47,253 nucleotides of DNA, taken from IMG/VR virus record IMGVR_UViG_3300012952_000031, positions 1 through 47,253 of that record; one strand, 5' to 3'. A program made the translations under genes and the position numbers. Within the stretch, counting starts at the first letter, position 1. Each line of letters starts with the position of its first letter. Source of the stretch: a virus. Its lineage: Duplodnaviria; Caudoviricetes. The notes beneath the pieces were generated by a model. The model saw only the letters and a program-made list of their open reading frames with translations. It ran no database searches and was not told where the DNA came from. Of this stretch, positions 22,356 through 43,587 are shown in pieces.

Positions 22356-22372
22356 CTCTTAAGACTCTTTAA

Positions 22373-24228: not shown

Positions 24229-24242
24229 TATTTATATTTATA
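24229..24242 (-). promoter_or_regulatory. Two overlapping T4 late promoters upstream of gp8
   Basis: TATTTATA at 24229-24236 and 24235-24242. Confidence 0.85.
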
Positions 24243-27200
24243 GATCTAAATCTGCGGTGATTATATAGTCACCTGCGACATAGGAGTCAGTATTGGCATC
24301 ATTAAACCACATCAACCTGACACCATATTGATCTGATGTCATATTTGTAGAATCATCCATAGAGATACGGATTATCGTTGTGGCAGTTTGAGCAGTGGCT
24401 GAGATATTGTGGGTTACTGTACGCCAATCATCAAACGTAGAGTCTGAATAAGTCGCAACTGACCCAATATCATTGAATGTAGTTCCACCATCTATACTGT
24501 AACTCAGCATCAAATCGTTTATTCCAGCAGAAGGTGTATTACCACCATTGCTACCGTTACCACGAATCGCACTAAATGTTACCGTATTGTATGTAGTCAA
24601 GTCAGTAGGAGCAAATGTTGCGGATCTAGCTCCACTTGCACCTGAGAATAAGAGATAATTGATGTTGGAAGCAAAACCTCCTGTGCCTGTACCTGTACCA
24701 CCTGCAACGACTGATGCCCCTACATTAGTAGTACCGAAATCATAAGCACTAAATCCTTTTTCGACTACACCTATTGGATTGACACGTGTACACCCAACAA
24801 AACGATCGGCAAATGCTTGTGTATACGTAATCTTCTCTCTCTTATCTTGATCACTGGCACTTCCAATAATTAAACTACCTCCACTAGCAGGGAATCCAGC
24901 AGTAGATGTAACAAGTAAAGTATCTGTACCATTTGGATTATCCAAAGCAGGATACTTTAAAGTTGTACCAAAATGTATTTTTGATCCTTGCATAAAGTTG
25001 AAGTCATTGGTATCACCAGGAGCTACAACTTTAGAACCAGCAATTTCAGCATTTTCAAAATCACCAACGGCAAGGGTAGGATAGAAATCAGAGAAGAATC
25101 CAATAGTCATATCACCCATAACGTAGTTAATAGTATTTCCTTTACCATCCACATAAGAACCAGTGTTATTAGTGGTACTTTGAGGTTGGATTTCAAACTT
25201 GAAGCTTTCTAGGTACTCTAGATGAGGACCAAGAAGGCCAGGACTGAATGTATCCTTACCAATCAATGAATCACCTAAATTACCAGCCTGTCTCTCAAGA
25301 CAACCTGACTGAGCACTAATCTTAGTTTCTGTCTTCTTATATTTCGATAAAGCAACTGACACACCTTGTACACCACCAGTACACTGAGTTTGTGTAACTT
25401 TAGTTCCTTTATGATCACATTTAAGATCTGCTGGTCCTAATTCAAATAGAATTTGTGGTTGACGTTTTGTGGTAATATCACTCAGAGGAAGAATCTTTCT
25501 AATGATAACTCTAGGATCAGAAGTCCTATTAATCAGATATGAAGGACTACCAGCATTACCAAATACCAATGTGGTACCAAGAGGTAGCATTGATCTCCAT
25601 TGAGGAGCAGAACCACCTTTGAAGATAGTGTCGATATATGATCTAAGACCACAACGAAGATCTATCTGTCTGTTAATACCGAAAGTAGTAAGGTTCTTAA
25701 TATTAATAGGATCCTTACGAATAACGAAATATCCTCTAGTAAATAAAACTTGAGGTGGTACTTTATATCCCGATCCTGATGAAATAATTTCAATATCACT
25801 TACTTCACCTCTAGTAACGATAGCATTTGCACGTGCACCACCACCTGTAGGTGATCCAATAGCAACACCATTTTCATCAAGTAAAGAAGCACTACGGAAA
25901 ACTAGTACTGGTGGTTCACGATAATTCTTGGAAATTTGATCTTCTAAATCATCTGAGTATATTGATGAAGTATAACCATATTCTTGTGATATGTTATTAG
26001 CACTTGCATTAGCAGGTATAAATGCTCCACCAAGACGATCTTCACCTTTATTCAATACATTATCATTTCTCCAGTTAAACTGATTATCAAAGTAAGTACT
26101 GTTATCTCTCTTAGAAACAACAAGACTATTAACACCACCTGGTTTTAGATATTGAAGACCAATAGATTCAGTACCAACAGTACCATCAATATAAATTTTT
26201 TCACCTGGACGGAAATTAGCCTCTACTGGATCAGTGTAAGGATTGCCATCTAGGTAGTTACTATACAATTCTACAGTCTTTCTAGCAGGAACGTAGTTCT
26301 TAACTGTAGCCTGCCATACTATAGCAGAACTAGTATTATTCTGATCAGCATACTGAACCAGAATATCGCCTGGTAAATATTCCTGATTTAACTGTCTACT
26401 AGAAACAAGTGTGTGGTATCTTAATTCTGCGTCAATACGAGCAACAGCTTGTCCACCATCACCCTCAATCTGTCCAGAGTAAGGACCAACGTTAACCACA
26501 ACTTCATACTCATAAGATCTAAAGAATGATCCAACGGTAGTATCACTGTCATAACCAGAGGTTACAAGTGCTTCTCTAGCAGCACGTATGATTGAACGTG
26601 TATCTGCCTCACCGTCGATTTGAATAAGATCTCCTGGTTTCAAATTAGATTCTAATCTATCTTGTCTATTAAATAATCTTTCTCTAAGATCAACGTTAAC
26701 TAGTTCTTCTACTGCTGTAACATTAGCATCAAGTAAAGAAGCACTAGCTCCTCTATCTCTCGTGATACTTATAGTACCACCTTCCCAGTTAACTTTCTGT
26801 GCTGTAACACCTTCGACGAATATAAGGTTCCTAGAACCAGGTTCCCAGTTCTGCTTATAAATTCTACCTCTAGCATACGAATACTCATAGGTATGTGCAT
26901 TAGAACTAGCATCAGTTGATACCCAACAATCAGCACCTTCAACAGGAATGATAACCTGTGTATCTAAAGTTAACTTGAAGAACTTCTTAAATGTGCCAGG
27001 TGGCTCAATATTATATCCTAAGAGAATACGTTCTGGATCTAAACCAAAGTAGTACAGAATGAAGCAAGCAGATCCTGTTGAAGGAGGTTCATTGAAAATT
27101 ACATAGTTATCTTCTATCCTATACGCTACTTTATTTTGCTGAATAACGCCGTTCAATATAATTACAATATTTTGATTTCTTTCTGCATAGAAAGGAACAC

Positions 27201-30200
27201 CACTACGTTCTAATTCAAATATAGTCTGAGCACTATTAAACTGAGGTTCAATAGAATCTAACTTGTAGTACTTACCGTGCTTATATCCGAAGAACAGTTG
27301 TTGAATACCTGGAGCAATAACATCAGTACTAGTAGAAGTAACAGTAGTTAAAGTAGCTTCACTTTGAACATCTTCACCAGCAAGAAATTCCTTCTCAGTC
27401 ATTTCTACCTGAATCTTATTAGGATTAGGGAAGTCCTGAGTTATCGTCATTAGATAGTTGTTGTTATTAAAAGCAGTCTCCTTAATAGTTGTAGTAACTA
27501 TACTAAACAACGTATTGATAGCGGATTCAACTTGAGCACACTGAGGAAGTGAATCAACAGTAATAGTAAGATCTCTATTAGCAGTTAAAGTACTATGAAC
27601 AATAGGCCATCTTTCTGGAATAGTTCTTGCTACATTGGCTTCAAATGTAGTTGGAGATTGTACTGCATCCTCGATTAAAGTAACAAATGTATTAACAGCA
27701 GATTCTACAGCAGCACATTCATTAGATTCCTTAGTGATAGAGGGATCTTTAACTTGTGTCAAACCGTGAGATCCAACTGCATTAACAGTATTACTACGTA
27801 TTACGTTTGCAAGAATAGTCTTTAAATGTCCCATTACATTTAAGACTTCTGGTATTTGGTGTTGAATATGCTCTAAATATCCACTTCTATCAATGAATAA
27901 ATCAGCAGCATCCCATACCCTGTTATTACCACCATACTTAAGGTTCCATACAATAGCCTTAAGAATGTCTTTAACGTCATCGACACAATCACCAAGTGCA
28001 TCGTGTGAAGAAGCACGAGGATAGGTATGGACAGTTTCGTGATTATCCATTGAACAAGTCAATGAAAGAGCATCACGGAAGAACTTAAATCCAGTTCCTC
28101 TAGACAATCTATGTTCTCCAATATCCATTATCAAATCACCTGTAATAGGATCATATCTACCTACAGTTGGTTCGTATGCTAATGGAAGTGATTTACCTAC
28201 AAATAATGTAATTGTACCAGCACCAGCATCTACTGATTGTAGACTTAATGTTCTACCATATGCAGGATCAGTAGGTCTAGGATAAGAATGAGGAGTCTCA
28301 TTTGCATCCATCTGACATCTCATTACAAGAGCATTAGGATCTATTGTGATGGTATTAGAAGTAGTTAAACTATGTCCACCAATTGTAAGAACAAGAATAC
28401 CAGTGTCGGGTGCAAATGTTGCATTAGTTGGAGTAAACTTAGCACCTGTATTAGCAGTAATTGAATTAGTTAATGCTCTATCAAATGTATGCTGATAATC
28501 ACCACCTGTCAGAATTACTGCTCTCTTAACACTATTTGGTAATGAACCTTGATATACGTGAGTAGTAACGTTACTTGAAGGTACTGTAGTATTAACTTGT
28601 ACTTGGAATGTATCACTTGTCTTATTCATTACCTTCAACCAAGAACCAGATGCAGGATCTTTCTTGTGCTCAATACCATCAGTCATAGCCTGATTTGCTA
28701 CGAAACTATGTGCTGTGGTGTTAGTAGAAGGAATAATATCTAATACAGTAACATCGAATGTTTGTCCTGAAGCATTAGAAATTTCTAACCACTTATTACT
28801 TGGGTAATCCGTATACCTAGGATATGAGTGTTGTGTCTGATTCGTGTCTTCTGTACAAGTAAATGTAAGTGCACCATCTTTAAATCTAATCCAATCACCA
28901 TCAGATAAGTTGTGTGTAACACCAACATCTACTGTTAGTACACCTGTACTACCATCATATAAAGTACCATTACCAGCAGTAAAGGAATCAGTTATCGCTC
29001 TAGGATATGCGTGATCATCAGCCTGTCCATTTTCATCACAACGGAATATAACAGCACCGTCAGCAAATTGTACATAATCTCCATTATCAAACCCGTGACT
29101 GGTGATAGTGACTTCCATAATACCCGTTGATGGGGTATAAGTTGCATTAGTTGGTGTCTGACCTACCTGAGGTGAGAATAGATGAGGAGTTGTATTTGAA
29201 GATTTACCAACGTTTGTTACAATAACACCATCTTGCTTAACAATACCATTTACAAGAGCAGAAACAAATGTGTGAACGGTCTCGTTAGTAGAAGGTAAAG
29301 TCTCTAAACATTGTATGTCAAAAGTATCAGGTGTAACATTTGATACAGATATCCACTTATCACTAATAGGATCTGTTGCCCTAGGATATGGGTGCCTGGT
29401 TAAGTTACCATCTTCCGCACAAGTAAAGGTTAATGATCCATCTGCAATCTTAATCTTATCTCCACTTGTTAGTCCGTGACCTTGAGATGTAATGCATAAA
29501 GGACCAGCACCTTGGAATGTATGAGGAACATTATGACTAATAACACCTTGACCACCATTAACATTAACAGTTACACTAGTATCATCTACTTTAAGGATTG
29601 GTAGGAATACATCATAAGCATAATCAGCACCACTTGTAGTATTAGCACCTACTGCTCTAGGATATGTCTTGGTTTGAGTTACGCCATTGTACTCACAACT
29701 GAATGATAGTGAGTTAGCAGTGATCTTAATACTATCGTAAGTAGTAAGATTATGACCAGCACCTAAAGTTATTTGCATATCACCAGATGCAGGACTATAT
29801 GCAGCATCTGATGGTGTAAATTGGAGAGTAGGTACTGTTAGAGTTACTATTCCAGTATCAGGAGCATATGCAGCATTGGTAGCAGTAAGAGGAGTACCTT
29901 CATACTTGATATAAGCAGCATCATCATAATATGGATCAGCTATAGTACCAACACCAACTTCTATTGGTGCAGATGATCCTTGGAATGTATGAGTATAATT
30001 ACCACCACTAATTAATGCACCAGCAGTAGCACTTATGAATGTATGAGCAGAATTAACACTAATAGCACCTTGGCCACCATTAACGTTAAGTGTAATAGTA
30101 GTTCCAGTTGCTGATGTAATCTCTAATGGAGTATCGTAAGCATAATCAGCACCACTAGATGTCCCTGCTCCAGTTGCTCTTGGATATGTGCTTTGACTAG

Positions 30201-33200
30201 TAGCTGATGCTATACCAACGTTACAAGAAACTGTAGTTCCTGTTACAGCAGTAATTGCTATTGCTTGGTTATATGCAGGGTCAGTCGTTCTTGGATATGG
30301 ATGATCAGTAGCGTGATTATCTGCATCACAAGTAAAGGTTACCTTACCAGCACCAATTGTAATTGTGTCACTAGTTGTGTAGCTATGACCACCGATAGTT
30401 AATTCTAATATACCTGTTGTTGGATCGTAATCAGCGTCAGTTATATCTTCTTGAGTACCAGCAATTGTAACTGCATTTGTTACTGTACCACCGCTATAAA
30501 TGTGAGTTCCAACAGCAGCAGGACACTCAAAAGTTAATGAATCTGTAGCAAGTTTAATACTTGTACCTGTAGATAAATTATGAGAACCAATGGTTAATAC
30601 CATATCACCCGATGTAGGGTTATATGTAGCATTTGATACATCATAATTTACAATAGGTGATGCACCCACATCAATAGTAAATGTTCCACCTGACTGGTCT
30701 ACAGATTTAATTTGAACTGTTTCACCACTAATAGGATCGGATGAACGTGGGTAGGTTTTATTACCAGAACCCATTGTACAACTGAATATTAATGAATTAT
30801 CTGGGATTCTAACAAATTGACCAGTAGTGTAAGAATGAGCTCCAATATTCAATTCTAGAATACCTGTTGCTGGTGTATAAGTAGCATCACTAACAGTTTG
30901 TAATGTACCAGTAGCCATTCTTGCTACTGCTTCTTCAGCAACGAAAATCTTGTTATCTGATATTAGTTTTGCAGCATCAATAAAGGTATTTGCTACAGGG
31001 TTGTCGATATTGTAAGGATCAGCATATACACCAATTGAATTTTGTGTTGTTTCTACAAATGTATGTGTATAGTTACCACCAGAAATAATAGCATCGTTAG
31101 CAGCACTAATAAATCTGTGAGTGTAACCTCCACCACTAATTACTGCTCCAGGAAGTGATCCAAGATAGGTATGTGGAGTTACATTGGTAGAAGGAGCTGT
31201 ATTCAATACGTTAATGGTAATAGTACCAGCACCTTGATCAGAGGCCTTGATATTAATTGCAGTATCGTGGAATGGATCTTTCTTCTTACTAATACCATCA
31301 GCAACTGCTGAAACAAATACGTGAGTATTAGTATTTGTGGAAGGAATTGCATCTAAAACAGTAACTTCAAATACTGTAGTATCAGCCTGAGTGTTGGAAA
31401 CCTTTAACCATCTATCGTGTGGATAATCCGTTTCTCTAGGATATGTTTTTGTCTGACCACCAGATGCAGCACCAACATTAACTGTGATAGTACCAGCACC
31501 TTGATCTACAGCATCAATTGCAATTGCTGTATTATAAGCAGGATCTCCAATACGAGGATATGTGTGAGTAGTAGCATTACTGTCTGCATCACAAGTAAAT
31601 GCTATAGCGTTTGCAGCAATTAATACAGTATCGCTGGTTGATAGAGTATGAGTTCCAATTGTAAGAACCATTTCTCCATTAGAAGAATTATAATTTGCAC
31701 CAATGACATTGTAGTTAGTTCCACCAGAAGAAAGTGCATCAATAGAAGTTCCACCAACATATGTGTGGTTTGTAGTACCATAATCACAACTAAGTGATAA
31801 TGAACCATCAGCAAATTTAATCCAATCACCATCTACTAATCCGTGGTCACCAGTTGTGGTAACACTCATAATACCTGTTGTTGGATTATATGTTGTGCCA
31901 GTAGTTGCGGTTAATGGAACTGTAGCTGTTCTAGGATATGAATATGTTCCACTACCTTCTGTACAACTAAAGGTTATAGAAGCATCTCTTAACTTAATAC
32001 TTTCGTTTGTGTTTAAACTATGTGTACCAATAGTTAGAACCATATCACCCGTCTGAGGGTCATATTGAGCATCACTAACATTATGATTTACTAAAGGAGA
32101 AGAACCAACTTGAAGTGTAATCTTACCCTTTTCTAACTCGATAGCATTAGGTACTGAACTTACGTAAGTATGTGCATCAGTGTTAGTAGAAGGAATTGTA
32201 TCTAATACTGATATATCAAATGTATTAGTTTGTACATTTGAAATTGGCATAAACTTACCACTAATAGCATCAGTAGGACGTGGATATGCAGAACCAGGAG
32301 AACTTACACCAACATCAACTGTAATAGTTGTGCTACCTACTGCTTTAATTCCAATTGCTTTGTTGTATACAGGATCAGTAGAACGTGGATATGAATGATC
32401 AGAACCAAAGTTGTCTAGATCACATTGGAAAGTTAATGATCCAGCAGCAATAGTAATTGTATCTACAAGTGTAAGATTATGTCCAGCACCAATAGTTAAT
32501 ATTAAATCACCAGTGCTAGGAGTATACTGAGCATTGGTGACATCCATTTGAGAACCACCTGTGACAGTTATAGCATTGGTTGCTGTTCCACCTGTATAGT
32601 TGTGAGTTCCACCACCATAGGTACAACTAAATGTTATTCCACCATCAGCAATTTTAACTTTATCTCCATTCTCAAATCCGTGATCTGGAACGGTAACAGT
32701 CATAATACCTGTAGTACCACTATAAACTGCACCAGTAGCAGTATGGAAAGTAGATCCAGTACTTACGATATTAACAGCAGTATCAAAGTAAGGATCGGTT
32801 GTTCTAGGATAAGTCTTGACTGTAGCCTGATCATCCATCTCACAACTGAATGATAGTGAGTTAGGAGCAATCTTAACAGCAGTATTTGGTTTAAGGTTAT
32901 GAGATCCAATAGTTAATTCTAATAAACCTGTAACAGGATCATAGGAACCATCAGTAGGAGTATGAGTAATATTAGTTGTAGCACCTACATTAACAGTAAC
33001 ATCATCACCTGTCACATTTGTAATGGCCAAAGTTGACCTGTAAGCAGGATCACCCTGTCTTGGATAAGTCTTATCGCCAGTTCCCATTGTGCAACTAAAT
33101 TTTAGTGCATTATCAGCAATGGTTATGAAATCTTCTGTAGTAAGCTCGTGATTTGGTATAGTTAGTACAAATGTACCATTAGCAGGAGTGTATACTGCAT

Positions 33201-36200
33201 TAGAAGGTGTTAGACTGAAGTTAGATGTTGCTGCTCTCTGATAATCATATAGATTGTCTATACCAAACTTATTACGTACCGCAAGGATAGTCATATCCTT
33301 AAGATACTTCATAGCCCATAAAGTTGCTTCTACTTCACCCTCAATATGCTTAATATCAGAATTAGGATCTGAAGGATCTAACAAATACTCTTTAGCAGCA
33401 TCAAATGTATTACTATTACCACCTTGGATAAGGTCATTTGCCATTGCCCTAAGAACAGACTTAAGGTCAACAATACACTGATTTCTACCTAATCCTGGAT
33501 ATTGGAAATATTCAGGTTTGAATTTACTAGTATCATCCAATATACCAACTGATTCTTCTGCTAATACAGAAGCATTGTCTTTAATGATATTAGCAGCATC
33601 TAGATACTTGTTGCCTCGGAAATATCTCTTAGCAACGATTTCACCTCTTGCTCCAGAAGTTTGGCCAACAACAAAGTCATTTACTAACCAATTAGTTGCA
33701 TCACCAATATCTAATTCTACAATCTTACCAACTTGTCTTGGTGCTTCACTAAAGGTAATCTTACTAGTACCAATACCACCTGGTGTTAAAGTAAATGCAA
33801 CATCAGGTTCTTGTATAACACCATCTAAAGAAACGTATAAATGATCATTTTCGGTAATAGTAATACCAAGATCAAATTCTTTAGTAGTACCATCAAATTG
33901 AGAAGTGATATTAGTCGCTTCTAGCATCCATTCAGCATTATTAGTATCATCCTGGAATTTCATCGACTTTCCGTAGAAAGTTACACCAGGAACAGCAATA
34001 CCAGTACGATCATCAATATATGGTCCTAATGGCGGTGAAGCAAAGGTTATTGTCGATCCACTGATTGTATAAGCAGTATCAGGATCCTGTAAAACACCAT
34101 CTAAAGTAACGATTAATTGTCTTGCGTTATATGGAGATAGTACTTCATTGATATCTTTCTTGAATAATGTAAATTGAGTCGTACCAGTGATTACCCCATT
34201 AGACTGAATAGCACCATCAAATTCTGGTGATAGATCTAAGTCAAATACTTCAATTTCAACGTTATTCTGTTCACTATAGTTAATAGTTCCCTTACCACGT
34301 TGTTTCGACATAGAATCGACTCTAACGTGGGATTGAGTAATCTTTCTTGACTTATGAGAACAAGTAACACCCAAAACGCCTGGTTCTATAATACTAAGAA
34401 CAGCACCAAAGCCATTATCCTTAATACCCGATTGTGGAGTGTCAATGGTCTTAGGTTGCGTTCCATCACCTTCAGACTCGATTAAGACCTCTCCAAAGAG
34501 GTTAAATCCAGCAGGATGGGTAAAACGCTTAACAAAGTCTCTCCAGTCATTAATAGAGATTGTAGACTTAACTACGTAAGAATAATCTTGATAATAGACT
34601 CCATCTTGGACTTTCTGCGAAACTGCACTTAATTTACTTCTATCACTCGAATATGAACCAACTGAAGTACTTGTGGGTCCAATTTCAGGAACAATGTCTG
34701 CTACAAAGATTTTTTGGATACTTGCATAACTACGAAGTGTTTCACCGTAGATTTGATACCTAGAATCGAAGTTTCCGTAAATACCCTTCAAACGAAGAAT
34801 ATTAATACCATCAACCCAATAATCGACTCTACCAGAAGCAATTACGTCTCCACCAAGGTTTCTTTGCGTAATTAGCTCTCCATTCAAGAATGCCTTATCT
34901 GGCATATTGTTTAGAGTCATTACAATAGGTGGATTGACTTGTGGAGTCAATGTTGGGTCATTGTTGAAGTCTTTACCCGAAGATATGATTTCTAGAGTTG
35001 CTAACTTACCAATATCGTCTCCGTGAGCAAATAACTTGACATCAGATTCATAAAGACGTAAAGTAGTTGTATCAGCATAATCAATACCTTCAACTGTAGG
35101 AATAATACGGCCTACACTTCCATCTGATCTTAATTCAACATTAAACTTAGCATTTGCTCCATTTCCAATATTTTCAAGCAATACAACGGGTTTTGAGTAA
35201 TTTAATCCAGTATCAGTAACTGTAACAGATACAATTCTACCATCGATGATATTTGGAGTAAAAGCACCTCTAAAACGCTTATTTAAGAAGACACCAGGAA
35301 CTAAAGGTGGCATTGTATAGTTTTTACCACCACTAATGACTTTAACCCTCTTAATCGCTCCTACAGCGTATAGAGAGTCCGTATAATACTGAACGTTCGT
35401 AAATCCTTCATTTTGAGGAGTAGTAGTAAGCCTATAAGCAAACTCCATCTCATATCCATAAAAAACGGGATGTTTACCTGCAAATGGATCTTCCACAAGA
35501 GTAAAGAACTGATTTTCGCTATCAACCTTATCAGCTACCTCTCCATAATAAATTTTAGGAGGAATATCTAGTACAGGTGTACTATTCCAAGTAGATCCAT
35601 CTATAGGTATACCATATCCCAATTGGAATGTAGTAAACGATCCAGTAGCACCTGGTTTAGTCTCTGATTCAAAAGACTGTATTAAATCGGTAGTTTTATA
35701 AACATTTTCATAGAATTTAAGATTCCTGTTGAGTAGAGAGGTATCACTAGTGTCAAATAGGTAACGATATGTTCTTTGAATATCTAATGTAATATTTTTA
35801 TTCCATTCTGTCTCTCCATCCTTCCTAAACCTAAATTTCAAAGAAGTATCTGGAGCACTGGCTATAGAAACCTGTTTAGCAGGAGTACTACCATCTAAAA
35901 ATGCAGATGATGTAGTAATTACTGTATCACCTTCATTCTGATAATAAACAGTAAGGTCTTGAGTCTCAGAATTGTAAGAATCTACAAATGCAGTATTTCC
36001 ACCAAAGGATATACTAGCATCTTTCGTAAATCTATAAACATTAGATACTAACGTTACAGATACACCTTCTATATGATCTTCTGCTTCAGATCCATTGACA
36101 CCACGTCCTACAGTTATTTCGTTACCTGAAACACTAACAACTTCGCAGAACTCATCAGTAATTTGAACTATATCACCTGCTGAAAAACCAGATGCACTAG

Positions 36201-39200
36201 TAGTTAATATGACAGCATCAGATTTGGCACAACCAGCAGCATCGACAAAGAATGAGCAATCTTGACTATTAACGTTACCACCTAGTAAACTAGATTGTAT
36301 AGTTAAGATATTTCCGTAACCATACCCATCACCTTTATTTGCTATAATAAATGACTCTACGTGGCCACCAGCATTTGTAGTAAGGGTAATTGTTGCACCT
36401 TGACCAGTACCAGAAACATTATTAAGGCTAAGTCCAGCAAAAGTAGTTGATGGTGTAAATCCACTACCAGCATTAACTACAGTTAATCTAGCTACCCCAG
36501 ATCCATTGATATCAGTGACTTTTGTGGGTGCGTTTAATTTAAGTGTGTTGTATTTCTTAGTCTCTACATAATATTTCTGTGTAGAGATACTAGAATCAGG
36601 TTGAACGGTAACAATAACATCATCACCAACTGCTAAACCGTGTCTCTTGGTAGCAGTTTTAAGAACAGCAATATTATCTTCTACATCAAGTAATGTAAAT
36701 TCTTTAGATAAAGATCTAACATTTACAATAGTTGCCGAATCTTCACCAATAGCACAACCATTACCATTAGCAAAGAATCCAAGTTTATTATAAGATGTGC
36801 TAGGGATAGTAACAGTATTACCATCTACAACAGTAGTTAATAAATCTGGGTTAGCATTCTGTAATTCTACAATAACAGTATTTTTATCAAATACGTTCCG
36901 TAAGACCTTACCAATAGCAGCTTCGTGTGATACACCACCATCATTAACAGCATAAACAATTAATGATCCAACATCTGCTACAACAGTGTCGTCAAAGGTT
37001 ATATTGTAAATTTCTGTAGTTGAACCGATTGGATCAAATTTATTAAATGTTCCTGTAACGTTTTTAACTACAAATTTATTATCTTCTTCAATCTTACCTA
37101 TAACTGTTCCTGTAGCACCGCTATTATCCTGTGTAAGGACAGTATTGTGGTTTAAGTATACATTATCATTACAAGTAAGATAAACGTTCTTAGGAGTGTT
37201 ACAGGACAAGGATGCAACTTCTTGACCTTGAATTTGGTCTACAGCAGCAAATAGTCCATCTCCATTATCATTAATAGAATTATCAACATATAGAACGTCT
37301 TCATTCGTGAAATTGAAAGAAGACTGATGAACCTCAACATTTGTAATTGGCCCATACTCAATTCCACTAACTCTGGAAGTTAATAACTCTCCTGTCTTAT
37401 CATTTGCACTAACAGTCCTTCTACGGACTCCATTTGGTAAAAATGCTTGTCTAGACTTAGGTTTCCAGTTTTCTTCGATAGGAACGTTATAAAATGCCTC
37501 ACCAATTGTATATGGGAAGGTAGGTGCTTCCGTATCATCAGTAGTCATAAAATATGCATAGACACCATTGGGAAATTCAGGTGTTGTGCAAAAACGTCCA
37601 TTATTAGCATCTAGATCACCTAAACGCTCTTCAAATTCATAATCATTAGTAAAACGACCTAATGAGTAAGTTGTTGTGCTTGGTGCATCGGATATTCTAC
37701 TTGTTTTGAGTTTCCAACTGGATCCCATCCTTTTTATGGTAGGATTAGCAGCAGTAACGTCTTGATAAGCATTTTCGTATCCAAAACTACCATATATGGG
37801 ATTTCCATCATAAGCCCATCCCAATATTGGAGAATGACTCTTATTTGATAAAGGGTTACCTTGACCATCGACATTATCTATTCTTTGCACCTTTAAAGAA
37901 GAAGGAGCAATGATATGACCATATGCATAACCATAATTAGGGTCATTAGAGTCTTCTACGATACCAGAAGCATTTCCATTGTCAACAGACATCTCTAAGT
38001 ATCTGTTATACTCCCATCTAGTCAAAACGGCAGTTGCAGATGCCATTCTAGACCTAGGAACCAATGTGACAGTTGTAGAACTGTCCACATAGTCAAAACC
38101 GCCAGATTGCTTAGTGAATCCAGTAATCTTACCTGTTGTGACATCTATTTGACAGGTAAAGAGTGCACCACCACCTTTTCCACTAGAATCGTAGATAAAA
38201 ACGTCTGGTGGCTCTGTATAATCAGAACCAGCATCAATTATTTGTGCTTGAGAATTAACAGAGAGATAAATGTTGGCAATTTCACCTTGTTGAATCAAAA
38301 CAGTGAATAGACCTCCCGATCCACTGGTAAATGTGACATCTGGAGCACTGGTATACCCAGATCCAGAATGTGTAACATTAACAGCAGTAATTTCGCCTAA
38401 CCCATTAATTTCAGCAGTTGCAGTTGCACCACCTTCAATATTAACAGTAGGTGGAACACTATAATTCCTTCCTGGGTCAGTAATAGTAATTTTTTGAACT
38501 GAACCGTAATCTAAACCTCTTTCTGACTTATGATTAAGTATAGGAACACCATTAACCAAAACACCAACTTCTTTTGAGGTCGTAATGTTCTTAGAACTAG
38601 CCTCTATTGGTTTTCTAGGTAAAATCTTAAGATATTCTTGATCTTGAGGTGTTTGAATATTGTCAAATGGTCCAATAGCATAAGATGGGAATCCAGAAGA
38701 CGCAATATAGTAATTTTCAGCATCTCTATAGATTGCAGAGACATCTGAAAGAAGTTTATCTTTAATATTGTTAGTTCCTACGTTACTTGGGTCGGAACCA
38801 ATTAATTTTGAGAAATTTTCATTAATAATCCATTCATTAGATAATGGTAAGTCATCAGAAAATCCAGATGACCTAAATTCAACCATATTGTTGAAATTAA
38901 CGTATGGAATACCACCACTAGCTACATCAAAGTAGTTGTCTGCGGTTTCATCATACTCTAGACCAGAACTTGCCTCTGGTTCAATACCTTTAGACTTTAA
39001 TCCAGATACAAGACCGTATATACGGAGATGCACTTCACCAGAAACTCCATTTTCGTTCCAATGACCAACTAGGTTGTTTTTAGTGAAGGCTCTAACTAAT
39101 TTCTTATGTGTGTACTCCTGTTTGTTCTGACTATTAACAGCATCCCTCTCTTTTATGATAAATTGAGTTGCAGTTTTACTGCTATAGGTAATTTCTTCAA

Positions 39201-40224
39201 TTCCTATGATAACTCGACCATCTCTTTCTGGAAAACCAATAGTAGAGAAGACATCTATACGATCTCCAGGTCCAGCACTGCTAGAAAGTTCATTCATTAA
39301 GAATGTACGTCTTGCTATAGCAAATTCACCCTCTTTAGAACCAGGTGAGATAGTTAATGTGTACTGTAAACTACCTTGATAAGGTTCACCGACTATATTG
39401 TCGATAATTGCATTCGCAGCAGTCAATTCTGGGTTGTATGGATCTGGACTCTGTACTACAGGATTACCAACAACCTTTCTAATGTCACCAGATATAGCTT
39501 CTACAACTAAAAGTTCTTTATTGTTCCATCCAGACTCAGATGCCTTATAAACATTCTCTTTTGGATAGATGATGTCAGGTTTGACACTAAACAGCATCTG
39601 GAAAATAAACTCCAATGACTGTGGTGTACCTTTGACGTTATAAAAGTCCTTTATCCTCTTAACTAAGAGGTTCTTATTCGTTTGATCTCTAAGATAAGGA
39701 TATGGGAAACCACTAGTATACTGTTCTTCGTAATTCTTGATTAAAGCAGCCAATAAAAGGTTACTTAAGTTGTTAACGACAGCATATTGCTTATGTACAG
39801 CAGCTGCAGAGTCAACAAATTTAATATCATTGTATAAATCGCCAAGTTCTGTCTTTGCACTATAACCACGAATACAATTCTTAAATTGAGTCTGGGTTTT
39901 GGACGTATATAAGAAGATTTCCTGATCGATCATTATCATCCCATTACTATTTGGGAATCCATCAGTATTATCTACTGTAATATCAATATTATCAGTACCT
40001 AACGTTATTTCTACTTCTAAACTTGCTGTCTTAACAAGAATCTCAGGTGAGAATGTATCTACATCAAGATATTTCTCAAAATTATTGATTACATCTTGCG
40101 GACCTTCGCTTATGGATAAGGCCTCATAGTACTTCGACAGAAAATTCGTTACGAGGGGATAATCCTCGACAATGAAATCTGGTAACTGACTTTCAATCAG
40201 TGCTGCTAGACTTGGACCTGCCAT
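24238..40224 (-). CDS. gp7: Giant baseplate wedge initiator gp7 with many accessory domains
   Basis: 5328 aa between gp6 and gp8; IESQLPDFI..YP...FL..YYE N-terminus, IKDFYNVKGT..SLEFIF, QDGVYYQDYSYVVKS...W...V....HPAGF.LFGE. Confidence 0.88.
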   Translation of the reverse strand: MAGPSLAALIESQLPDFIVEDYPLVTNFLSKYYEALSISEGPQDVINNFEKYLDVDTFSPEILVKTASLEVEITLGTDNIDITVDNTDGFPNSNGMIMIDQEIFLYTSKTQTQFKNCIRGYSAKTELGDLYNDIKFVDSAAAVHKQYAVVNNLSNLLLAALIKNYEEQYTSGFPYPYLRDQTNKNLLVKRIKDFYNVKGTPQSLEFIFQMLFSVKPDIIYPKENVYKASESGWNNKELLVVEAISGDIRKVVGNPVVQSPDPYNPELTAANAIIDNIVGEPYQGSLQYTLTISPGSKEGEFAIARRTFLMNELSSSAGPGDRIDVFSTIGFPERDGRVIIGIEEITYSSKTATQFIIKERDAVNSQNKQEYTHKKLVRAFTKNNLVGHWNENGVSGEVHLRIYGLVSGLKSKGIEPEASSGLEYDETADNYFDVASGGIPYVNFNNMVEFRSSGFSDDLPLSNEWIINENFSKLIGSDPSNVGTNNIKDKLLSDVSAIYRDAENYYIASSGFPSYAIGPFDNIQTPQDQEYLKILPRKPIEASSKNITTSKEVGVLVNGVPILNHKSERGLDYGSVQKITITDPGRNYSVPPTVNIEGGATATAEINGLGEITAVNVTHSGSGYTSAPDVTFTSGSGGLFTVLIQQGEIANIYLSVNSQAQIIDAGSDYTEPPDVFIYDSSGKGGGALFTCQIDVTTGKITGFTKQSGGFDYVDSSTTVTLVPRSRMASATAVLTRWEYNRYLEMSVDNGNASGIVEDSNDPNYGYAYGHIIAPSSLKVQRIDNVDGQGNPLSNKSHSPILGWAYDGNPIYGSFGYENAYQDVTAANPTIKRMGSSWKLKTSRISDAPSTTTYSLGRFTNDYEFEERLGDLDANNGRFCTTPEFPNGVYAYFMTTDDTEAPTFPYTIGEAFYNVPIEENWKPKSRQAFLPNGVRRRTVSANDKTGELLTSRVSGIEYGPITNVEVHQSSFNFTNEDVLYVDNSINDNGDGLFAAVDQIQGQEVASLSCNTPKNVYLTCNDNVYLNHNTVLTQDNSGATGTVIGKIEEDNKFVVKNVTGTFNKFDPIGSTTEIYNITFDDTVVADVGSLIVYAVNDGGVSHEAAIGKVLRNVFDKNTVIVELQNANPDLLTTVVDGNTVTIPSTSYNKLGFFANGNGCAIGEDSATIVNVRSLSKEFTLLDVEDNIAVLKTATKRHGLAVGDDVIVTVQPDSSISTQKYYVETKKYNTLKLNAPTKVTDINGSGVARLTVVNAGSGFTPSTTFAGLSLNNVSGTGQGATITLTTNAGGHVESFIIANKGDGYGYGNILTIQSSLLGGNVNSQDCSFFVDAAGCAKSDAVILTTSASGFSAGDIVQITDEFCEVVSVSGNEITVGRGVNGSEAEDHIEGVSVTLVSNVYRFTKDASISFGGNTAFVDSYNSETQDLTVYYQNEGDTVITTSSAFLDGSTPAKQVSIASAPDTSLKFRFRKDGETEWNKNITLDIQRTYRYLFDTSDTSLLNRNLKFYENVYKTTDLIQSFESETKPGATGSFTTFQLGYGIPIDGSTWNSTPVLDIPPKIYYGEVADKVDSENQFFTLVEDPFAGKHPVFYGYEMEFAYRLTTTPQNEGFTNVQYYTDSLYAVGAIKRVKVISGGKNYTMPPLVPGVFLNKRFRGAFTPNIIDGRIVSVTVTDTGLNYSKPVVLLENIGNGANAKFNVELRSDGSVGRIIPTVEGIDYADTTTLRLYESDVKLFAHGDDIGKLATLEIISSGKDFNNDPTLTPQVNPPIVMTLNNMPDKAFLNGELITQRNLGGDVIASGRVDYWVDGINILRLKGIYGNFDSRYQIYGETLRSYASIQKIFVADIVPEIGPTSTSVGSYSSDRSKLSAVSQKVQDGVYYQDYSYVVKSTISINDWRDFVKRFTHPAGFNLFGEVLIESEGDGTQPKTIDTPQSGIKDNGFGAVLSIIEPGVLGVTCSHKSRKITQSHVRVDSMSKQRGKGTINYSEQNNVEIEVFDLDLSPEFDGAIQSNGVITGTTQFTLFKKDINEVLSPYNARQLIVTLDGVLQDPDTAYTISGSTITFASPPLGPYIDDRTGIAVPGVTFYGKSMKFQDDTNNAEWMLEATNITSQFDGTTKEFDLGITITENDHLYVSLDGVIQEPDVAFTLTPGGIGTSKITFSEAPRQVGKIVELDIGDATNWLVNDFVVGQTSGARGEIVAKRYFRGNKYLDAANIIKDNASVLAEESVGILDDTSKFKPEYFQYPGLGRNQCIVDLKSVLRAMANDLIQGGNSNTFDAAKEYLLDPSDPNSDIKHIEGEVEATLWAMKYLKDMTILAVRNKFGIDNLYDYQRAATSNFSLTPSNAVYTPANGTFVLTIPNHELTTEDFITIADNALKFSCTMGTGDKTYPRQGDPAYRSTLAITNVTGDDVTVNVGATTNITHTPTDGSYDPVTGLLELTIGSHNLKPNTAVKIAPNSLSFSCEMDDQATVKTYPRTTDPYFDTAVNIVSTGSTFHTATGAVYSGTTGIMTVTVPDHGFENGDKVKIADGGITFSCTYGGGTHNYTGGTATNAITVTGGSQMDVTNAQYTPSTGDLILTIGAGHNLTLVDTITIAAGSLTFQCDLDNFGSDHSYPRSTDPVYNKAIGIKAVGSTTITVDVGVSSPGSAYPRPTDAISGKFMPISNVQTNTFDISVLDTIPSTNTDAHTYVSSVPNAIELEKGKITLQVGSSPLVNHNVSDAQYDPQTGDMVLTIGTHSLNTNESIKLRDASITFSCTEGSGTYSYPRTATVPLTATTGTTYNPTTGIMSVTTTGDHGLVDGDWIKFADGSLSLSCDYGTTNHTYVGGTSIDALSSGGTNYNVIGANYNSSNGEMVLTIGTHTLSTSDTVLIAANAIAFTCDADSNATTHTYPRIGDPAYNTAIAIDAVDQGAGTITVNVGAASGGQTKTYPRETDYPHDRWLKVSNTQADTTVFEVTVLDAIPSTNTNTHVFVSAVADGISKKKDPFHDTAINIKASDQGAGTITINVLNTAPSTNVTPHTYLGSLPGAVISGGGYTHRFISAANDAIISGGNYTHTFVETTQNSIGVYADPYNIDNPVANTFIDAAKLISDNKIFVAEEAVARMATGTLQTVSDATYTPATGILELNIGAHSYTTGQFVRIPDNSLIFSCTMGSGNKTYPRSSDPISGETVQIKSVDQSGGTFTIDVGASPIVNYDVSNATYNPTSGDMVLTIGSHNLSTGTSIKLATDSLTFECPAAVGTHIYSGGTVTNAVTIAGTQEDITDADYDPTTGILELTIGGHSYTTSDTITIGAGKVTFTCDADNHATDHPYPRTTDPAYNQAIAITAVTGTTVSCNVGIASATSQSTYPRATGAGTSSGADYAYDTPLEITSATGTTITLNVNGGQGAISVNSAHTFISATAGALISGGNYTHTFQGSSAPIEVGVGTIADPYYDDAAYIKYEGTPLTATNAAYAPDTGIVTLTVPTLQFTPSDAAYSPASGDMQITLGAGHNLTTYDSIKITANSLSFSCEYNGVTQTKTYPRAVGANTTSGADYAYDVFLPILKVDDTSVTVNVNGGQGVISHNVPHTFQGAGPLCITSQGHGLTSGDKIKIADGSLTFTCAEDGNLTRHPYPRATDPISDKWISVSNVTPDTFDIQCLETLPSTNETVHTFVSALVNGIVKQDGVIVTNVGKSSNTTPHLFSPQVGQTPTNATYTPSTGIMEVTITSHGFDNGDYVQFADGAVIFRCDENGQADDHAYPRAITDSFTAGNGTLYDGSTGVLTVDVGVTHNLSDGDWIRFKDGALTFTCTEDTNQTQHSYPRYTDYPSNKWLEISNASGQTFDVTVLDIIPSTNTTAHSFVANQAMTDGIEHKKDPASGSWLKVMNKTSDTFQVQVNTTVPSSNVTTHVYQGSLPNSVKRAVILTGGDYQHTFDRALTNSITANTGAKFTPTNATFAPDTGILVLTIGGHSLTTSNTITIDPNALVMRCQMDANETPHSYPRPTDPAYGRTLSLQSVDAGAGTITLFVGKSLPLAYEPTVGRYDPITGDLIMDIGEHRLSRGTGFKFFRDALSLTCSMDNHETVHTYPRASSHDALGDCVDDVKDILKAIVWNLKYGGNNRVWDAADLFIDRSGYLEHIQHQIPEVLNVMGHLKTILANVIRSNTVNAVGSHGLTQVKDPSITKESNECAAVESAVNTFVTLIEDAVQSPTTFEANVARTIPERWPIVHSTLTANRDLTITVDSLPQCAQVESAINTLFSIVTTTIKETAFNNNNYLMTITQDFPNPNKIQVEMTEKEFLAGEDVQSEATLTTVTSTSTDVIAPGIQQLFFGYKHGKYYKLDSIEPQFNSAQTIFELERSGVPFYAERNQNIVIILNGVIQQNKVAYRIEDNYVIFNEPPSTGSACFILYYFGLDPERILLGYNIEPPGTFKKFFKLTLDTQVIIPVEGADCWVSTDASSNAHTYEYSYARGRIYKQNWEPGSRNLIFVEGVTAQKVNWEGGTISITRDRGASASLLDANVTAVEELVNVDLRERLFNRQDRLESNLKPGDLIQIDGEADTRSIIRAAREALVTSGYDSDTTVGSFFRSYEYEVVVNVGPYSGQIEGDGGQAVARIDAELRYHTLVSSRQLNQEYLPGDILVQYADQNNTSSAIVWQATVKNYVPARKTVELYSNYLDGNPYTDPVEANFRPGEKIYIDGTVGTESIGLQYLKPGGVNSLVVSKRDNSTYFDNQFNWRNDNVLNKGEDRLGGAFIPANASANNISQEYGYTSSIYSDDLEDQISKNYREPPVLVFRSASLLDENGVAIGSPTGGGARANAIVTRGEVSDIEIISSGSGYKVPPQVLFTRGYFVIRKDPINIKNLTTFGINRQIDLRCGLRSYIDTIFKGGSAPQWRSMLPLGTTLVFGNAGSPSYLINRTSDPRVIIRKILPLSDITTKRQPQILFELGPADLKCDHKGTKVTQTQCTGGVQGVSVALSKYKKTETKISAQSGCLERQAGNLGDSLIGKDTFSPGLLGPHLEYLESFKFEIQPQSTTNNTGSYVDGKGNTINYVMGDMTIGFFSDFYPTLAVGDFENAEIAGSKVVAPGDTNDFNFMQGSKIHFGTTLKYPALDNPNGTDTLLVTSTAGFPASGGSLIIGSASDQDKREKITYTQAFADRFVGCTRVNPIGVVEKGFSAYDFGTTNVGASVVAGGTGTGTGGFASNINYLLFSGASGARSATFAPTDLTTYNTVTFSAIRGNGSNGGNTPSAGINDLMLSYSIDGGTTFNDIGSVATYSDSTFDDWRTVTHNISATAQTATTIIRISMDDSTNMTSDQYGVRLMWFNDANTDSYVAGDYIITADLDL
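28000..33230 (-). repeat. About 16 ~100-aa YPR repeats within gp7
   Basis: Consensus AxYxPxTGxLxLTIGxHxL...IxIAxxSLxFxC...HxYPRxxDP; 7 YPR motifs counted in 31035-33230 and 9 in 28000-30900. Confidence 0.9.
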
Positions 40225-42042: not shown

Positions 42043-42441
42043 TTATCGGGTTCTTTCTAGAAAGAATTCTACATCACGAACTTGGACATCAGTAGGTATA
42101 CCAATAATCTCAAACGAAATAGAGCATTCAAAACCGTTACCATCATAATCAGCATCTACATCACAACGAAGTAGATTGATTCTTGGTTCGTATTTGTTTA
42201 TTACATATTCAATCTCTTCCTTTAAAAGAGATGCAGTCGCAGCATCAAGAGGTTCAAATAACAAATCTGCAACATTACTACCTAGATCAGGCTTGAAGAA
42301 TCTTTCTCCCTTCCTGGTCATCACAATATTATATAACGCTCTTTTAACCGCATCTTCATCGGTGGTTATAAGAACGTCTTCTGTAACTGGGTTCATACCC
42401 ATCGAAATGGATAGATCCTTGAAGTCTACCTTTGTAGGCAT
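42043..42441 (-). CDS. gp25: Baseplate wedge subunit gp25
   Basis: 132 aa; FKDLS...NPVT.D, AVKR...NIV.T.KGERFF.P.LGS, YEPRI, FFLERTR. Confidence 0.95.
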   Translation of the reverse strand: MPTKVDFKDLSISMGMNPVTEDVLITTDEDAVKRALYNIVMTRKGERFFKPDLGSNVADLLFEPLDAATASLLKEEIEYVINKYEPRINLLRCDVDADYDGNGFECSISFEIIGIPTDVQVRDVEFFLERTR

Positions 42442-43039: not shown

Positions 43040-43587
43040 TAGTTAGAGCAATCAGTTACAGAGTTGTCACCAGGTGATTGAGATCCTGAACCACCACTTC
43101 CTCCAATAGAAGGAATTTTTAAGATGGGGAAAGATCCCAGTCCACCCATTGTAGCAGCAATATCCTTTAATTTCTCGGATGAGCTACCACCTTTACATAA
43201 TATCACAGTAGGGGCACCTACCGCAACCTTTGATCCGCAAGAGATTGCCGTACCTATCTTAGCAGGAGGAAGTCCAGTTGCACAAATCTTAGGTCCAATC
43301 TTCGCCATTACAGCATCTGTTTCCTTATCGCCTGATTTGGGCACCTTTGCAGGTACAGATGGAGACCCTACTCCGCAATCAACAGTAGCACAACCAACTC
43401 CAACAGTGCCTGGATGGCACGCAGGGTTCTTTCCACACGGTTTACAGTGTGTAAGACGCACTTGTGTACTCACAAGAGGTGGAATTTTAGTTACTAGGAC
43501 ACTTGTAACGGGTGAAGGGGCATATCCAGCTGGTGGCCAGCATCCGTGACCCGTACAAACACCTGTAGATAGTCCAAAAGCAGACAT
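43039..43587 (-). CDS. PAAR-like spike tip protein (gp5.4-like) with extensions
   Basis: 182 aa; CTGHGCWPP, H...H, AKIG..ISCGS.VA.G...V; His/Cys metal ligands; located upstream of gp25. Confidence 0.78.
   Translation of the reverse strand: MSAFGLSTGVCTGHGCWPPAGYAPSPVTSVLVTKIPPLVSTQVRLTHCKPCGKNPACHPGTVGVGCATVDCGVGSPSVPAKVPKSGDKETDAVMAKIGPKICATGLPPAKIGTAISCGSKVAVGAPTVILCKGGSSSEKLKDIAATMGGLGSFPILKIPSIGGSGGSGSQSPGDNSVTDCSN

What the first reader, a model, noticed from the sequence alone, without database searches (positions are those of the whole stretch)
27360..33720. Recursively nested (matryoshka) domains in gp7 imply a tree-shaped polypeptide
Seen: the YPR repeats are not simply tandem. Complete repeats interrupt others at fixed points, e.g. 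...GITFSC [full repeat ~32290-32620] AYPRPTDA, and three levels deep in YSYPR [..SLSLSC [full repeat] KTYPRETDY..GISKK] KDPFHDT. Closing strands then stack like brackets (PHTYL..GGGYTHRF..GGNYTHTF, ~31035-31180). The second repeat block (~970 aa) splits a helical domain between AEEAVARM (~30920) and DCVDDVKDIL (~27975), segments that are near-adjacent in the first copy (AEESVGIL..QCIVDLKSVL). Two closing helices (CAAVESAVN, CAQVESAIN) follow. The whole ~2100-aa block seems to sit inside a small GQTSGARG...FLAGE barrel. Inference: a dendritic appendage grown by repeated duplication into loops.
Basis: partly seen in the sequence, partly recalled or inferred. Interest (0 to 1): 0.8.

Follow-up and report, generated by a model that had tools for sequence, protein, structure and literature searches.

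The report
Nested domain tree in cyanophage gp7
A giant baseplate protein of what is likely a marine cyanobacterial virus carries 16 copies of one small repeat whose pieces are ordered like nested brackets, and close relatives carry 0 to 18 copies at the same sites, so the chain is predicted to fold into a branched tree up to seven domains deep whose branches are likely swapped between viruses by recombination.

Summary
Confirmed. In gp7 (24238-40224, minus strand, 5328 aa), residues 2335-4074 divide without remainder into 16 units of 101-113 aa, each built of six segments (A-F) that interrupt one another in bracket order; four units are circular permutants. Nesting beats tandem order and shuffles here and across homologues, and bracket partners co-vary. 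Orthologues carry 0-18 units at the same sites, and in insert-free ones the split helical domain is contiguous. In an AlphaFold model the halves of a split unit form one FCCH-like barrel. The two helical domains are phycobiliprotein-like and nested. The outer barrel has only weak support. The closest known case is the Si3 insert of cyanobacterial RNA polymerase (six levels; here six, or seven with the outer barrel). Function is untested; a variable host-contact appendage is my best guess. The scan reported this architecture before on six other genomes.

The parts
24238..40224 (-). gp7-position baseplate wedge protein, 5328 aa (residue i starts at 40224-3(i-1))
   Evidence: ORF. Lies between gp6 and gp8; same order gp25-gp6-gp7-gp8-VrlC in P-HM2. 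PF23786 E 1.2e-4, under its cut-off
33616..33738 (-). Outer small barrel, first half (aa 2163-2203); tier 1, weakly supported
   Evidence: profile positions 15-31, 8.3 bits; complex prediction weak support
27319..27435 (-). Outer small barrel, second half (aa 4264-4302)
   Evidence: profile positions 39-65, 3.9 bits
33223..33615 (-). Helical domain H1 (phycobiliprotein-like), first three helices (aa 2204-2334); tier 2
27436..27609 (-). H1 closing helix with second Cys (aa 4206-4263)
   Evidence: profile positions 120-161 at aa 4211-4251; globin-fold chains align over model range 42-401 in the insert-free orthologue
30913..31026 (-). Helical domain H2, first helix (aa 3067-3104); tier 3, inside H1
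   Evidence: profile positions 2-32; joined to the rest by a 17-19 aa linker in the 8 empty alleles compared
27610..28002 (-). H2, remaining helices and closing helix (aa 4075-4205)
   Evidence: profile positions 32-162; model range 181-337 matches phycobiliproteins and globins
31027..33222 (-). Beta block 1 = unit 1 and its subtree: 1[2[3[4]][5[6[7]]]]; unit 1 is aa 2335-2416 + 3048-3066
   Evidence: a single contiguous unit here in 15 of 17 short orthologues, none in 2
31084..32976 (-). Unit 2 (three pieces), in the E|F loop of unit 1; branch point with inserts at D|E and E|F
32128..32751 (-). Unit 3, split at B|C by unit 4
   Evidence: AlphaFold model of aa 2492-2699, pLDDT 88.7; contiguous barrels align over model range 1-208
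32296..32616 (-).
31138..32091 (-). Unit 5, split at C|D by unit 6
31282..31920 (-). Unit 6, split at B|C by unit 7
   Evidence: both halves are closest to contiguous unit 14
31462..31779 (-). Unit 7, permutant FABCDE; deepest leaf (tier 7 counting the outer barrel, tier 6 without it)
28003..30912 (-). Beta block 2 (970 aa) inside H2: 8[9[10]] then 16[11[12]][13[14]][15]
29953..30912 (-). Unit 8 and its subtree; polymorphic site with 0, 1, 2, 3 or 5 units in orthologues
30010..30654 (-). Unit 9, split at B|C by unit 10
   Evidence: contiguous in P0005
30205..30513 (-). Unit 10, permutant FABCDE; carries a further two-unit insert at A|B in P0001/L001-L003
28003..29952 (-). Unit 16, permutant starting at D (four pieces); branch point with three children
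   Evidence: minimal form DEF[FABCDE]ABC in P0123, P0128, P0132, P0135
29233..29898 (-). Unit 11, split at A|B by unit 12
29491..29829 (-). Unit 12, contiguous ABCDEF
28522..29163 (-). Unit 13, split at C|D by unit 14
28663..28989 (-). Unit 14, contiguous ABCDEF
28189..28506 (-). Unit 15, permutant FABCDE inside the F segment of unit 16
40228..42042 (-). gp6 baseplate wedge (context)
   Evidence: three Gp6 Pfam families, phrog_219
22373..24190 (-). gp8 baseplate wedge (context)
   Evidence: PF09215, phrog_438

Best explanation
Residues 2163-4302 of this gp7 consist of 16 beta repeats and two helical repeats whose pieces are ordered like nested brackets, and the region is predicted to fold as a branched tree of domains inserted into each other's loops, which likely grows and shrinks by recombination of whole branches between phages and likely serves as a variable, exposed host-contact appendage of the baseplate. 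SHOWN in sequence: the six-segment unit, the bracket order, circular permutants, inserts at every junction of the unit in the family, and orthologues with 0-18 units at the same sites. PREDICTED by models: the unit is an FCCH/endosialidase-type barrel of about 105 aa; a split unit closes around its guest; H2 sits inside H1 and both have the phycobiliprotein (globin) fold. INFERRED: because the unit's two ends lie side by side (it tolerates circular permutation), a whole unit or subtree can sit in any loop without unfolding its host. The chain runs out along a branch and returns, so every joint is crossed twice; leaves can fold first and the root last. A double crossover in the conserved segments either side of a loop moves the guest subtree between alleles or genes. 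How the first insertions arose is not shown. GUESSED (about 0.4): adsorption aid or glycan contact.
For: Grammar: cost 0 against tandem 16 and 10, 0 of 500 shuffles. In 60 of 74 distinct homologue block strings: nested 117, tandem 911, shuffles 374 +/- 11 over 2951 segments, 59 of 60 below their shuffle mean. In 26 blocks from proteins not used to train the motifs: 83 vs 237 vs 121 +/- 6, 21 of 26. All 16 units measure 101-113 aa under the parse. Co-variation: Mantel rho 0.51, p 1e-4 for bracket pairing against 0.11 for first-in-first-out; in 127 split homologue units rho 0.27 against 0.007 for random partners and -0.06 for the next downstream partner. Orthologue series. Model of unit 3[4]: pLDDT 88.7, and 76 residues of the phi92 endosialidase barrel (Z 8.2, rmsd 2.1) and of UBA1 FCCH (Z 7.9, rmsd 2.7) align across model range 1-208. 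Insert-free orthologue model: pTM 0.72, H2 at 181-337, H1 matches spanning 42-401. The helical profile splits 2-32 / 32-162 exactly across block 2. Recombination: the P0001 insert is 75.5% like P0034 against 55.7% to own-type units. Filled and empty site-2 alleles occur side by side in four clades of sisters (97-99% identical N-flank); the filled alleles of P0128 and P0132 are 96.4% identical against 82-84% in the flanks, with a shared downstream signature. Outer barrel: complex score 0.48 against best control 0.01, verdict weak support; that mark was reached by 116 of 157 solved and 2 of 215 mismatched pairs, but at 0.60 or under by only 18 solved and both mismatches; run agreement at least 94%, partner pLDDT at least 73.
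Against: No experimental structure. Only one two-unit module and one insert-free orthologue were folded, not the deep tree. Automatically called block 2 is not significant on its own (48 of 500). Segment A does not co-vary with B (rho 0.16, p 0.12). The bracket partner beats the next-downstream partner in only 83 of 127 units, and the strict parser left 3992 of 11690 segments unparsed. The outer barrel was unfolded in AlphaFold, is weak by profile and is never contiguous in the orthologues seen. Nothing tests function: orthologues with no beta units exist (2 of 17), so the tree is not needed for the core baseplate role. The recombination reading rests on protein identities and FastTree trees of 23 of 27 orthologues (4 dropped for a missed motif).
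Confidence: 0.78

Rival explanations
1. The bracket order is real, but the separated halves complete domains between different gp7 chains (domain swapping among the wedge copies or in an oligomeric fibre), so the product is a mesh or fibre, not a single-chain tree.
For: Baseplates hold several gp7 copies (six in T4; recalled). Sequence tests cannot tell pairing within a chain from pairing between chains.
Against: Strict last-in-first-out order is expected only for pairing within a chain. Sisters differ by whole subtrees. A single-chain model closes unit 3 around unit 4 with high confidence.
Confidence: 0.07
2. The tree grows by intragenic duplication of a unit or subtree into a nearby loop; presence/absence among relatives is repeated loss.
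For: Some units within the gene resemble each other (6 with 14, 3 with 11, 9 with 12), and some duplication must have made the first copies.
Against: Off-diagonal DNA matches between the window gene and L001-L005 are mostly 65-77% identical (one 66-base stretch at 82%). The newest insert is closer to other phages' proteins than to own-type units. Empty alleles in four clades share a specific 17-19 aa linker that deletion could not recreate, and filled alleles carry co-inherited flanking residues.
Confidence: 0.2
3. The beta tree is a largely neutral, structurally tolerated passenger or spacer (selfish repeat accretion); the functional payload is the phycobiliprotein-like hubs or the C-terminal domains that it positions.
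For: Zero-unit orthologues exist. Unit number varies 0-18 among close relatives. The most conserved unit residues look structural.
Against: Units stay intact and in frame, with balanced brackets, in most blocks tested. The same three-unit allele recurs in four clades. The unit is also found in proteins annotated as short tail fibres.
Confidence: 0.3
4. The pattern is a chance by-product of shuffled tandem half-repeats or of mis-assembly.
For: Purely tandem variants of the unit exist (L013, L014, L032, L034). A tandem pair can also be read as a nested permutant.
Against: (shuffles keep neighbour pairs). Tandem cost is 3-8 times higher. The same strings occur on independent contigs, and a comparable tree in cultured P-SSM4 has nested cost 2 against tandem 16.
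Confidence: 0.01

Closest known systems
Si3 insertion of cyanobacterial RNA polymerase beta' (RpoC2), built of sandwich-barrel hybrid motifs
   Same: One small beta domain repeated and inserted into copies of itself. PMC10895346 (passages): eight SBHMs, four of them discontinuous, crystal structure. PMC13114784 (passages): eight domains in a six-level recursive architecture, the paper's example of deep nesting among 2.7 million domains.
   Different: Different fold (no SBHM among the 50 VIA rows shown; inconclusive). A virion protein, not an enzyme. 16 beta units plus two helical domains; six tiers, or seven with the weakly supported outer barrel (level counting may differ from theirs); up to nine tiers of beta units alone in homologues P0010/P0011. 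Circular permutants; copy number varies 0-18 among close relatives.
E1 FCCH domain (PF16190) and the beta-barrel of phage phi92 endosialidase
   Same: Best structural matches of the unit (Z 7.9 and 8.2, 76 residues); weak Pfam match to profile positions 2-25. Both are themselves inserted domains (recalled).
   Different: Single insertions, not self-nested. The Pfam score is under the cut-off (27.6 of 29.5 bits over the block). The YPR, Cys and His motifs are specific to this family. Sialic-acid binding by the endosialidase barrel is recalled, not tested here.
Phycobiliprotein beta subunits (CpcB/CpeB, PF00502)
   Same: H1 and H2: VIA Z 14.1 to phycoerythrin chain 5aqd_M (rmsd 4.8, 167 aligned) and 12.7 to ApcE (rmsd 2.3, 118 aligned). 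Profile match to phycocyanin beta, probability 87%, with the two phage cysteines aligned to beta Cys82 and Cys153.
   Different: Fused inside a virion protein, starting near beta residue 31, split by inserts. Pfam score under the cut-off (19.9 of 22.2 bits). Pigment binding untested.
T4 gp7 baseplate wedge protein and the gp7 of T4-like cyanophages (P-SSM4, P-HM2)
   Same: Position between gp6 and gp8; N-terminal PF23786 match (E 1.2e-4). Cultured P-SSM4 gp7 (7312 aa) has a 64-segment nested block, cost 2 against tandem 16.
   Different: T4 gp7 is about a fifth of this length and has no such tree (recalled). The trees differ between cyanophages.

Membership tests
Recursive domain-insertion architecture (Si3-like build) | A1-B-A2 pattern applied recursively, with guests that are themselves hosts | tested here: met
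   uninterrupted hosts in orthologues
Recursive domain-insertion architecture (Si3-like build) | Separated halves form one domain in three dimensions | tested here: inconclusive
   supported in predicted models for unit 3 and for H1; weak for the outer barrel; no experimental structure
SBHM/HABAS (Si3) domain family | Sandwich-barrel hybrid fold or sequence | tested here: inconclusive
   not among the 50 VIA rows shown and no Pfam or PDB sequence match; a family not listed is not excluded
E1_FCCH (PF16190) | Pfam gathering score | tested here: not met
   27.6 bits for the block and 14.4 for one unit, cut-off 29.5
E1_FCCH (PF16190) | Small beta-barrel fold superimposable on FCCH | tested here: met
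   Z 7.9, rmsd 2.7, 76 residues, 17-21% identity; predicted model, middling Z
Phycobiliprotein (PF00502) | Globin/phycobiliprotein fold | tested here: met
   VIA Z 14.1; Foldseek probability 1.0 but E only 3.7e-3
Phycobiliprotein (PF00502) | Pfam gathering score | tested here: not met
   16-19.9 bits against 22.2
Phycobiliprotein (PF00502) | Bilin-attachment cysteines (beta 82, beta 153) | tested here: met
   aligned; Cys in 577 of 597 and 211 of 409 occupied rows; both present in H1 and H2 of the window
Phycobiliprotein (PF00502) | Covalently bound bilin | not testable with these tools
   needs spectroscopy or mass spectrometry
T4 gp7 baseplate wedge | Gene between gp6 and gp8 | tested here: met
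T4 gp7 baseplate wedge | Baseplate-wedge domain above the curated cut-off | tested here: inconclusive
   PF23786 22.1 of 27 bits; PHROG 'baseplate wedge subunit' and 'virion structural protein' families match strongly
T4 gp7 baseplate wedge | Present in the virion baseplate | not testable with these tools
   no particle data for this phage

The most novel reading that the evidence does not exclude
Cyanophage gp7 is a combinatorial protein dendrimer. A circularly permutable barrel accepts guests at every loop, phages trade whole branches by recombination to retune an adsorption appendage, nesting runs deeper than the six-level case highlighted in the ECOD survey (seven tiers here, nine tiers of barrels alone in relatives), and the phycobiliprotein-like hubs from which the branches grow carry bilins attached by the phage's own CpeT-type lyase, giving a pigment-bearing baseplate.
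Probability: 0.2. Interest if true: 0.92.

Novelty: new variant of a known kind. Interest (0 to 1): 0.72.

Why it matters
Deep recursive insertion is rare; the ECOD-wide survey PMC13114784 gives six levels in cyanobacterial RNA polymerase as its example (passages). Here it is the normal build of a virion protein family: 760 clusters at 50% identity match the unit, and in the phage collection all 176 matching records are named Synechococcus, Prochlorococcus, Cyanophage or Marine. Intermediates with 0-18 units survive among close relatives, so the way such trees grow can be studied directly. The unit is also a natural scaffold that tolerates inserts at all its junctions. The architecture explains why these giant 'structural proteins' defeat linear domain annotation, and it gives testable predictions for baseplate appendages and host range. 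My paper searches listed no paper describing this in a phage; the library lacks most subscription journals. Earlier notes of this scan describe the same thing on other genomes.

Tried and rejected
BLASTP self-comparison reported only the self hit; replaced by an ungapped diagonal scan. DNA search of the H1 region in phage genomes: no match; the best cultured relatives of the upstream part are about 30-33% identical, so no cultured close orthologue was found. Unit profile against PDB sequences: best E 0.12. Foldseek of the unit 3[4] model: nothing at E <= 0.001. ESM Atlas: unnamed clusters at 0.96, FCCH cluster at 0.92 (a lead only). Helical domain against PDB sequences found a designed repeat protein, and the whole-protein profile A7 was uninformative. 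The plasmid search gave only E >= 0.2. A scan of bacterial genomes with the unit alignment could not be run for lack of a conserved stretch, so presence in cells is untested. AlphaFold did not fold the outer barrel from a 25-row alignment. CpeT and bilin reductase were found in P-HM2 and P-SSM4 but not in the 55%-complete contig of an insert-free orthologue; two near-complete orthologue contigs were not searchable. Papers read as passages gave no evidence on gp7 function: PMC1079782, PMC9910659 (mutations in gp8 and other structural genes), PMC3037559. Gasper 2017 on phage CpeT was not held. No supplements were opened. A metal site formed by the unit's conserved Cys and His residues was considered but not tested.


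Full report
Setting. The window is a minus-strand tail module of a T4-like phage: gp25-like (42043-42441), gp6, a 5328-aa ORF (24238-40224), gp8 and a VrlC-like gene, in the same order as in Prochlorococcus phage P-HM2. One repeat unit finds 176 records in the phage collection, all named Synechococcus, Cyanophage, Prochlorococcus or Marine. The host is therefore inferred to be a marine cyanobacterium.

The observation. The repeat has six segments: A (Y.P.TG hairpin), B (H.L..GD...F.C), C (YPR), D (DP.Y), E (I.VNVG) and F (H.F...AI). Residues 2335-4074, minus the H2 helix at 3067-3104, divide into 16 units of 101-113 aa with hand-set boundaries. Block 1 is 1[2[3[4]][5[6[7]]]]. Block 2 is 8[9[10]] followed by 16[11[12]][13[14]][15]. 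Units 4, 7, 10 and 15 are circular permutants (FABCDE), and unit 16 starts at D.

Grammar test. I scored segment strings by edit cost under a nested and a tandem grammar, against shuffles that keep neighbour pairs. Hand parse: cost 0 and 0, tandem 16 and 10, 0 of 500 shuffles in each block. Automatic calls: cost 1 and 3, reached by 1 of 500 and 48 of 500. In homologues (strings), 60 of the 74 distinct strings of 18-75 segments (out of 347 blocks) gave nested 117, tandem 911 and shuffled 374 +/- 11; 59 of 60 lay below their shuffle mean. The motifs were trained on those proteins. In 26 internal blocks from the 41 proteins of at least 1500 aa among 149 new representatives the costs were 83, 237 and 121 +/- 6, with 21 of 26 below. 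Cultured P-SSM4 gp7 has cost 2 against tandem 16. Purely tandem variants also exist.

Are the bracket partners the true partners? Across the 16 units, similarity of A+B tracks similarity of D+E under bracket pairing (rho 0.51, p 1e-4) but hardly under first-in-first-out pairing (0.11); A against B is not significant (0.16, p 0.12). A strict parser recovered 1209 distinct complete units from 160 proteins and left 3992 of 11690 segments unparsed. Inserts occur at all junctions (E|F 253, D|E 123, A|B 102, C|D 78, B|C 62, F|A 29), and beta-only depth reaches 9 (P0010, P0011). For 127 units split between B and D, the bracket partner co-varies with B (0.27), random partners do not (0.007, maximum 0.067 of 200), nor does the next downstream partner (-0.06); the bracket partner is higher in 83 of 127.

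Natural insertion series. Directly after the H2 helix, orthologues carry 0 (P0006, P0008), 1 (P0007), 2 (P0005), 3 (window, P0002-P0004) or 5 (P0001) nested units. Seventeen shorter orthologues keep the same scaffold with 0 units (2), 1 (10), 3 (4) or 4 (1); the distance between the barrel halves falls from 2065 to 372 aa. In the empty alleles the two parts of H2 are joined by 17-19 residues, and a profile of contiguous helical domains splits 2-32 / 32-162 exactly across block 2 of the window.

Models. AlphaFold2 on unit 3[4] (aa 2492-2699, 18 rows) gave pLDDT 88.7 and pTM 0.59, all beta, confident in both outer halves. Contiguous barrels of about 80 residues (phi92 endosialidase Z 8.2, rmsd 2.1; UBA1 FCCH Z 7.9, rmsd 2.7; 76 aligned) match over model range 1-208, and other barrels match 43-150. 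The outer halves therefore form one barrel in the model and the permuted guest another; these Z values are middling. An insert-free orthologue (L068, 459 aa, 25 rows) gave pTM 0.72 with confident helices. H2 (181-337) matches phycobiliproteins (Z 14.1, rmsd 4.8; ApcE Z 12.7, rmsd 2.3), and several globin-fold chains match 42-401 (best Z 10.4, rmsd 2.9, 113 aligned), which reads as H1 closing with the last helix around H2. The outer barrel was not folded in that model. Its halves hit complementary parts of a barrel profile weakly. As two chains they scored 0.48 against a best control of 0.01: weak support, with run agreement of at least 94% and partner pLDDT of at least 73. The mark was reached by 116 of 157 solved and 2 of 215 mismatched pairs, but at 0.60 or under by 18 solved and both mismatches, and halves of one domain can pass by likeness to solved structures. 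Depth is thus six tiers firmly (H1, 1, 2, 5, 6, 7) and seven with the barrel.

How it changes. L001 is 97-98% identical in DNA to the window gene but has two more units inside unit 10. That insert is 75.5% identical to P0034 and 71% to P0073, against 55.7% to own-type units 3/4, and P0073 and P0084 carry it at the same A|B junction. Among the short orthologues, filled and empty alleles of site 2 occur side by side in four clades whose sisters are 97-99% identical in the N-flank (trees of 23 of 27 orthologues). The filled alleles of P0128 and P0132 are 96.4% identical against 82-84% in the flanks; all 4 filled alleles share downstream residues that the 8 empty ones compared lack; and the empties share a linker that deletion could not rebuild. 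I infer double crossovers in conserved flanks that carry whole subtrees. The origin of the first insertions is not shown.

Function. Untested. A variable, exposed, dispensable appendage on a baseplate protein, made of barrels whose best match sits in a tailspike and that also occur in proteins annotated as short tail fibres, most likely aids contact with the host surface (about 0.4); a neutral spacer is the main rival. The helical hubs keep cysteines that align with phycocyanin beta Cys82 and Cys153 (577 of 597 and 211 of 409 rows). A review states that T-type lyases serve Cys153 and that CpeT occurs in 31 of 153 cyanophage genomes (PMC10452541, passages). P-HM2 and P-SSM4 encode CpeT and a bilin reductase. 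Pigment attachment is a testable side hypothesis; the window itself is only about 25% of a genome.

Comparison and verdict. The closest known build is the Si3 insert of cyanobacterial RNA polymerase (PMC10895346 and PMC13114784, passages), a lead I took from earlier notes of this scan and then checked. This case works like Si3 but with a different fold, more units, permutants, two domain types and variation among close relatives. My searches listed no paper on it in phages (listings and abstract starts only). The scan noted the nesting before on six other genomes and the pigment-domain idea in eight further notes; those are unchecked notes, not support. Verdict: real, a new variant of a known kind, interest 0.72.

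Noticed in passing
window 33223-33615, 27436-27609, 30913-31026, 27610-28002: Both helical domains are phycobiliprotein-like and keep cysteines aligned with beta Cys82 and Cys153; P-HM2 and P-SSM4, which carry such domains in gp7, encode CpeT and a bilin reductase. Candidate substrate for the phage lyase.
   Followed up: partly
L013:4125-12134, L014, L015, L032, L034: A variant of the beta unit without a recognisable YPR segment occurs in purely tandem arrays (ABDEF repeated), a possible ancestral or non-nesting form.
   Followed up: no
P0015, P0017, P0027, P0030-P0032, P0037: One four-unit nested subtree is repeated four to six times along a single protein, so whole trees are also duplicated as blocks.
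   Followed up: no
P0010, P0011: A single block of about 150 segments (about 25 units), nine beta tiers deep, in 6600-aa proteins: the deepest case seen.
   Followed up: partly
every beta unit, e.g. window 28663-28989: Invariant Cys (end of B), YPR and His (F) in an alignment of 102 units; might form a metal site or a staple for the returning strand.
   Followed up: no
window 24241-25000 (C-terminus of gp7): Reelin subrepeat-B-like domain (PF21471, E 6e-12) ends gp7; the shorter orthologues listed lack this Pfam hit and differ at the C-terminus. A YHYH domain lies at aa 771-897.
   Followed up: no
window 14043-24190 and 43587-46121: gp8, the VrlC-like protein and the 844-aa ORF contain contiguous copies of the small 'F..GE.V.G..SGA' barrel that is split in gp7.
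   Followed up: partly
L091:29845-30886 (P-HM2): A second gene annotated gp7 lies downstream in P-HM2, so such giant repeat proteins occur as paralogues that could donate subtrees.
   Followed up: no
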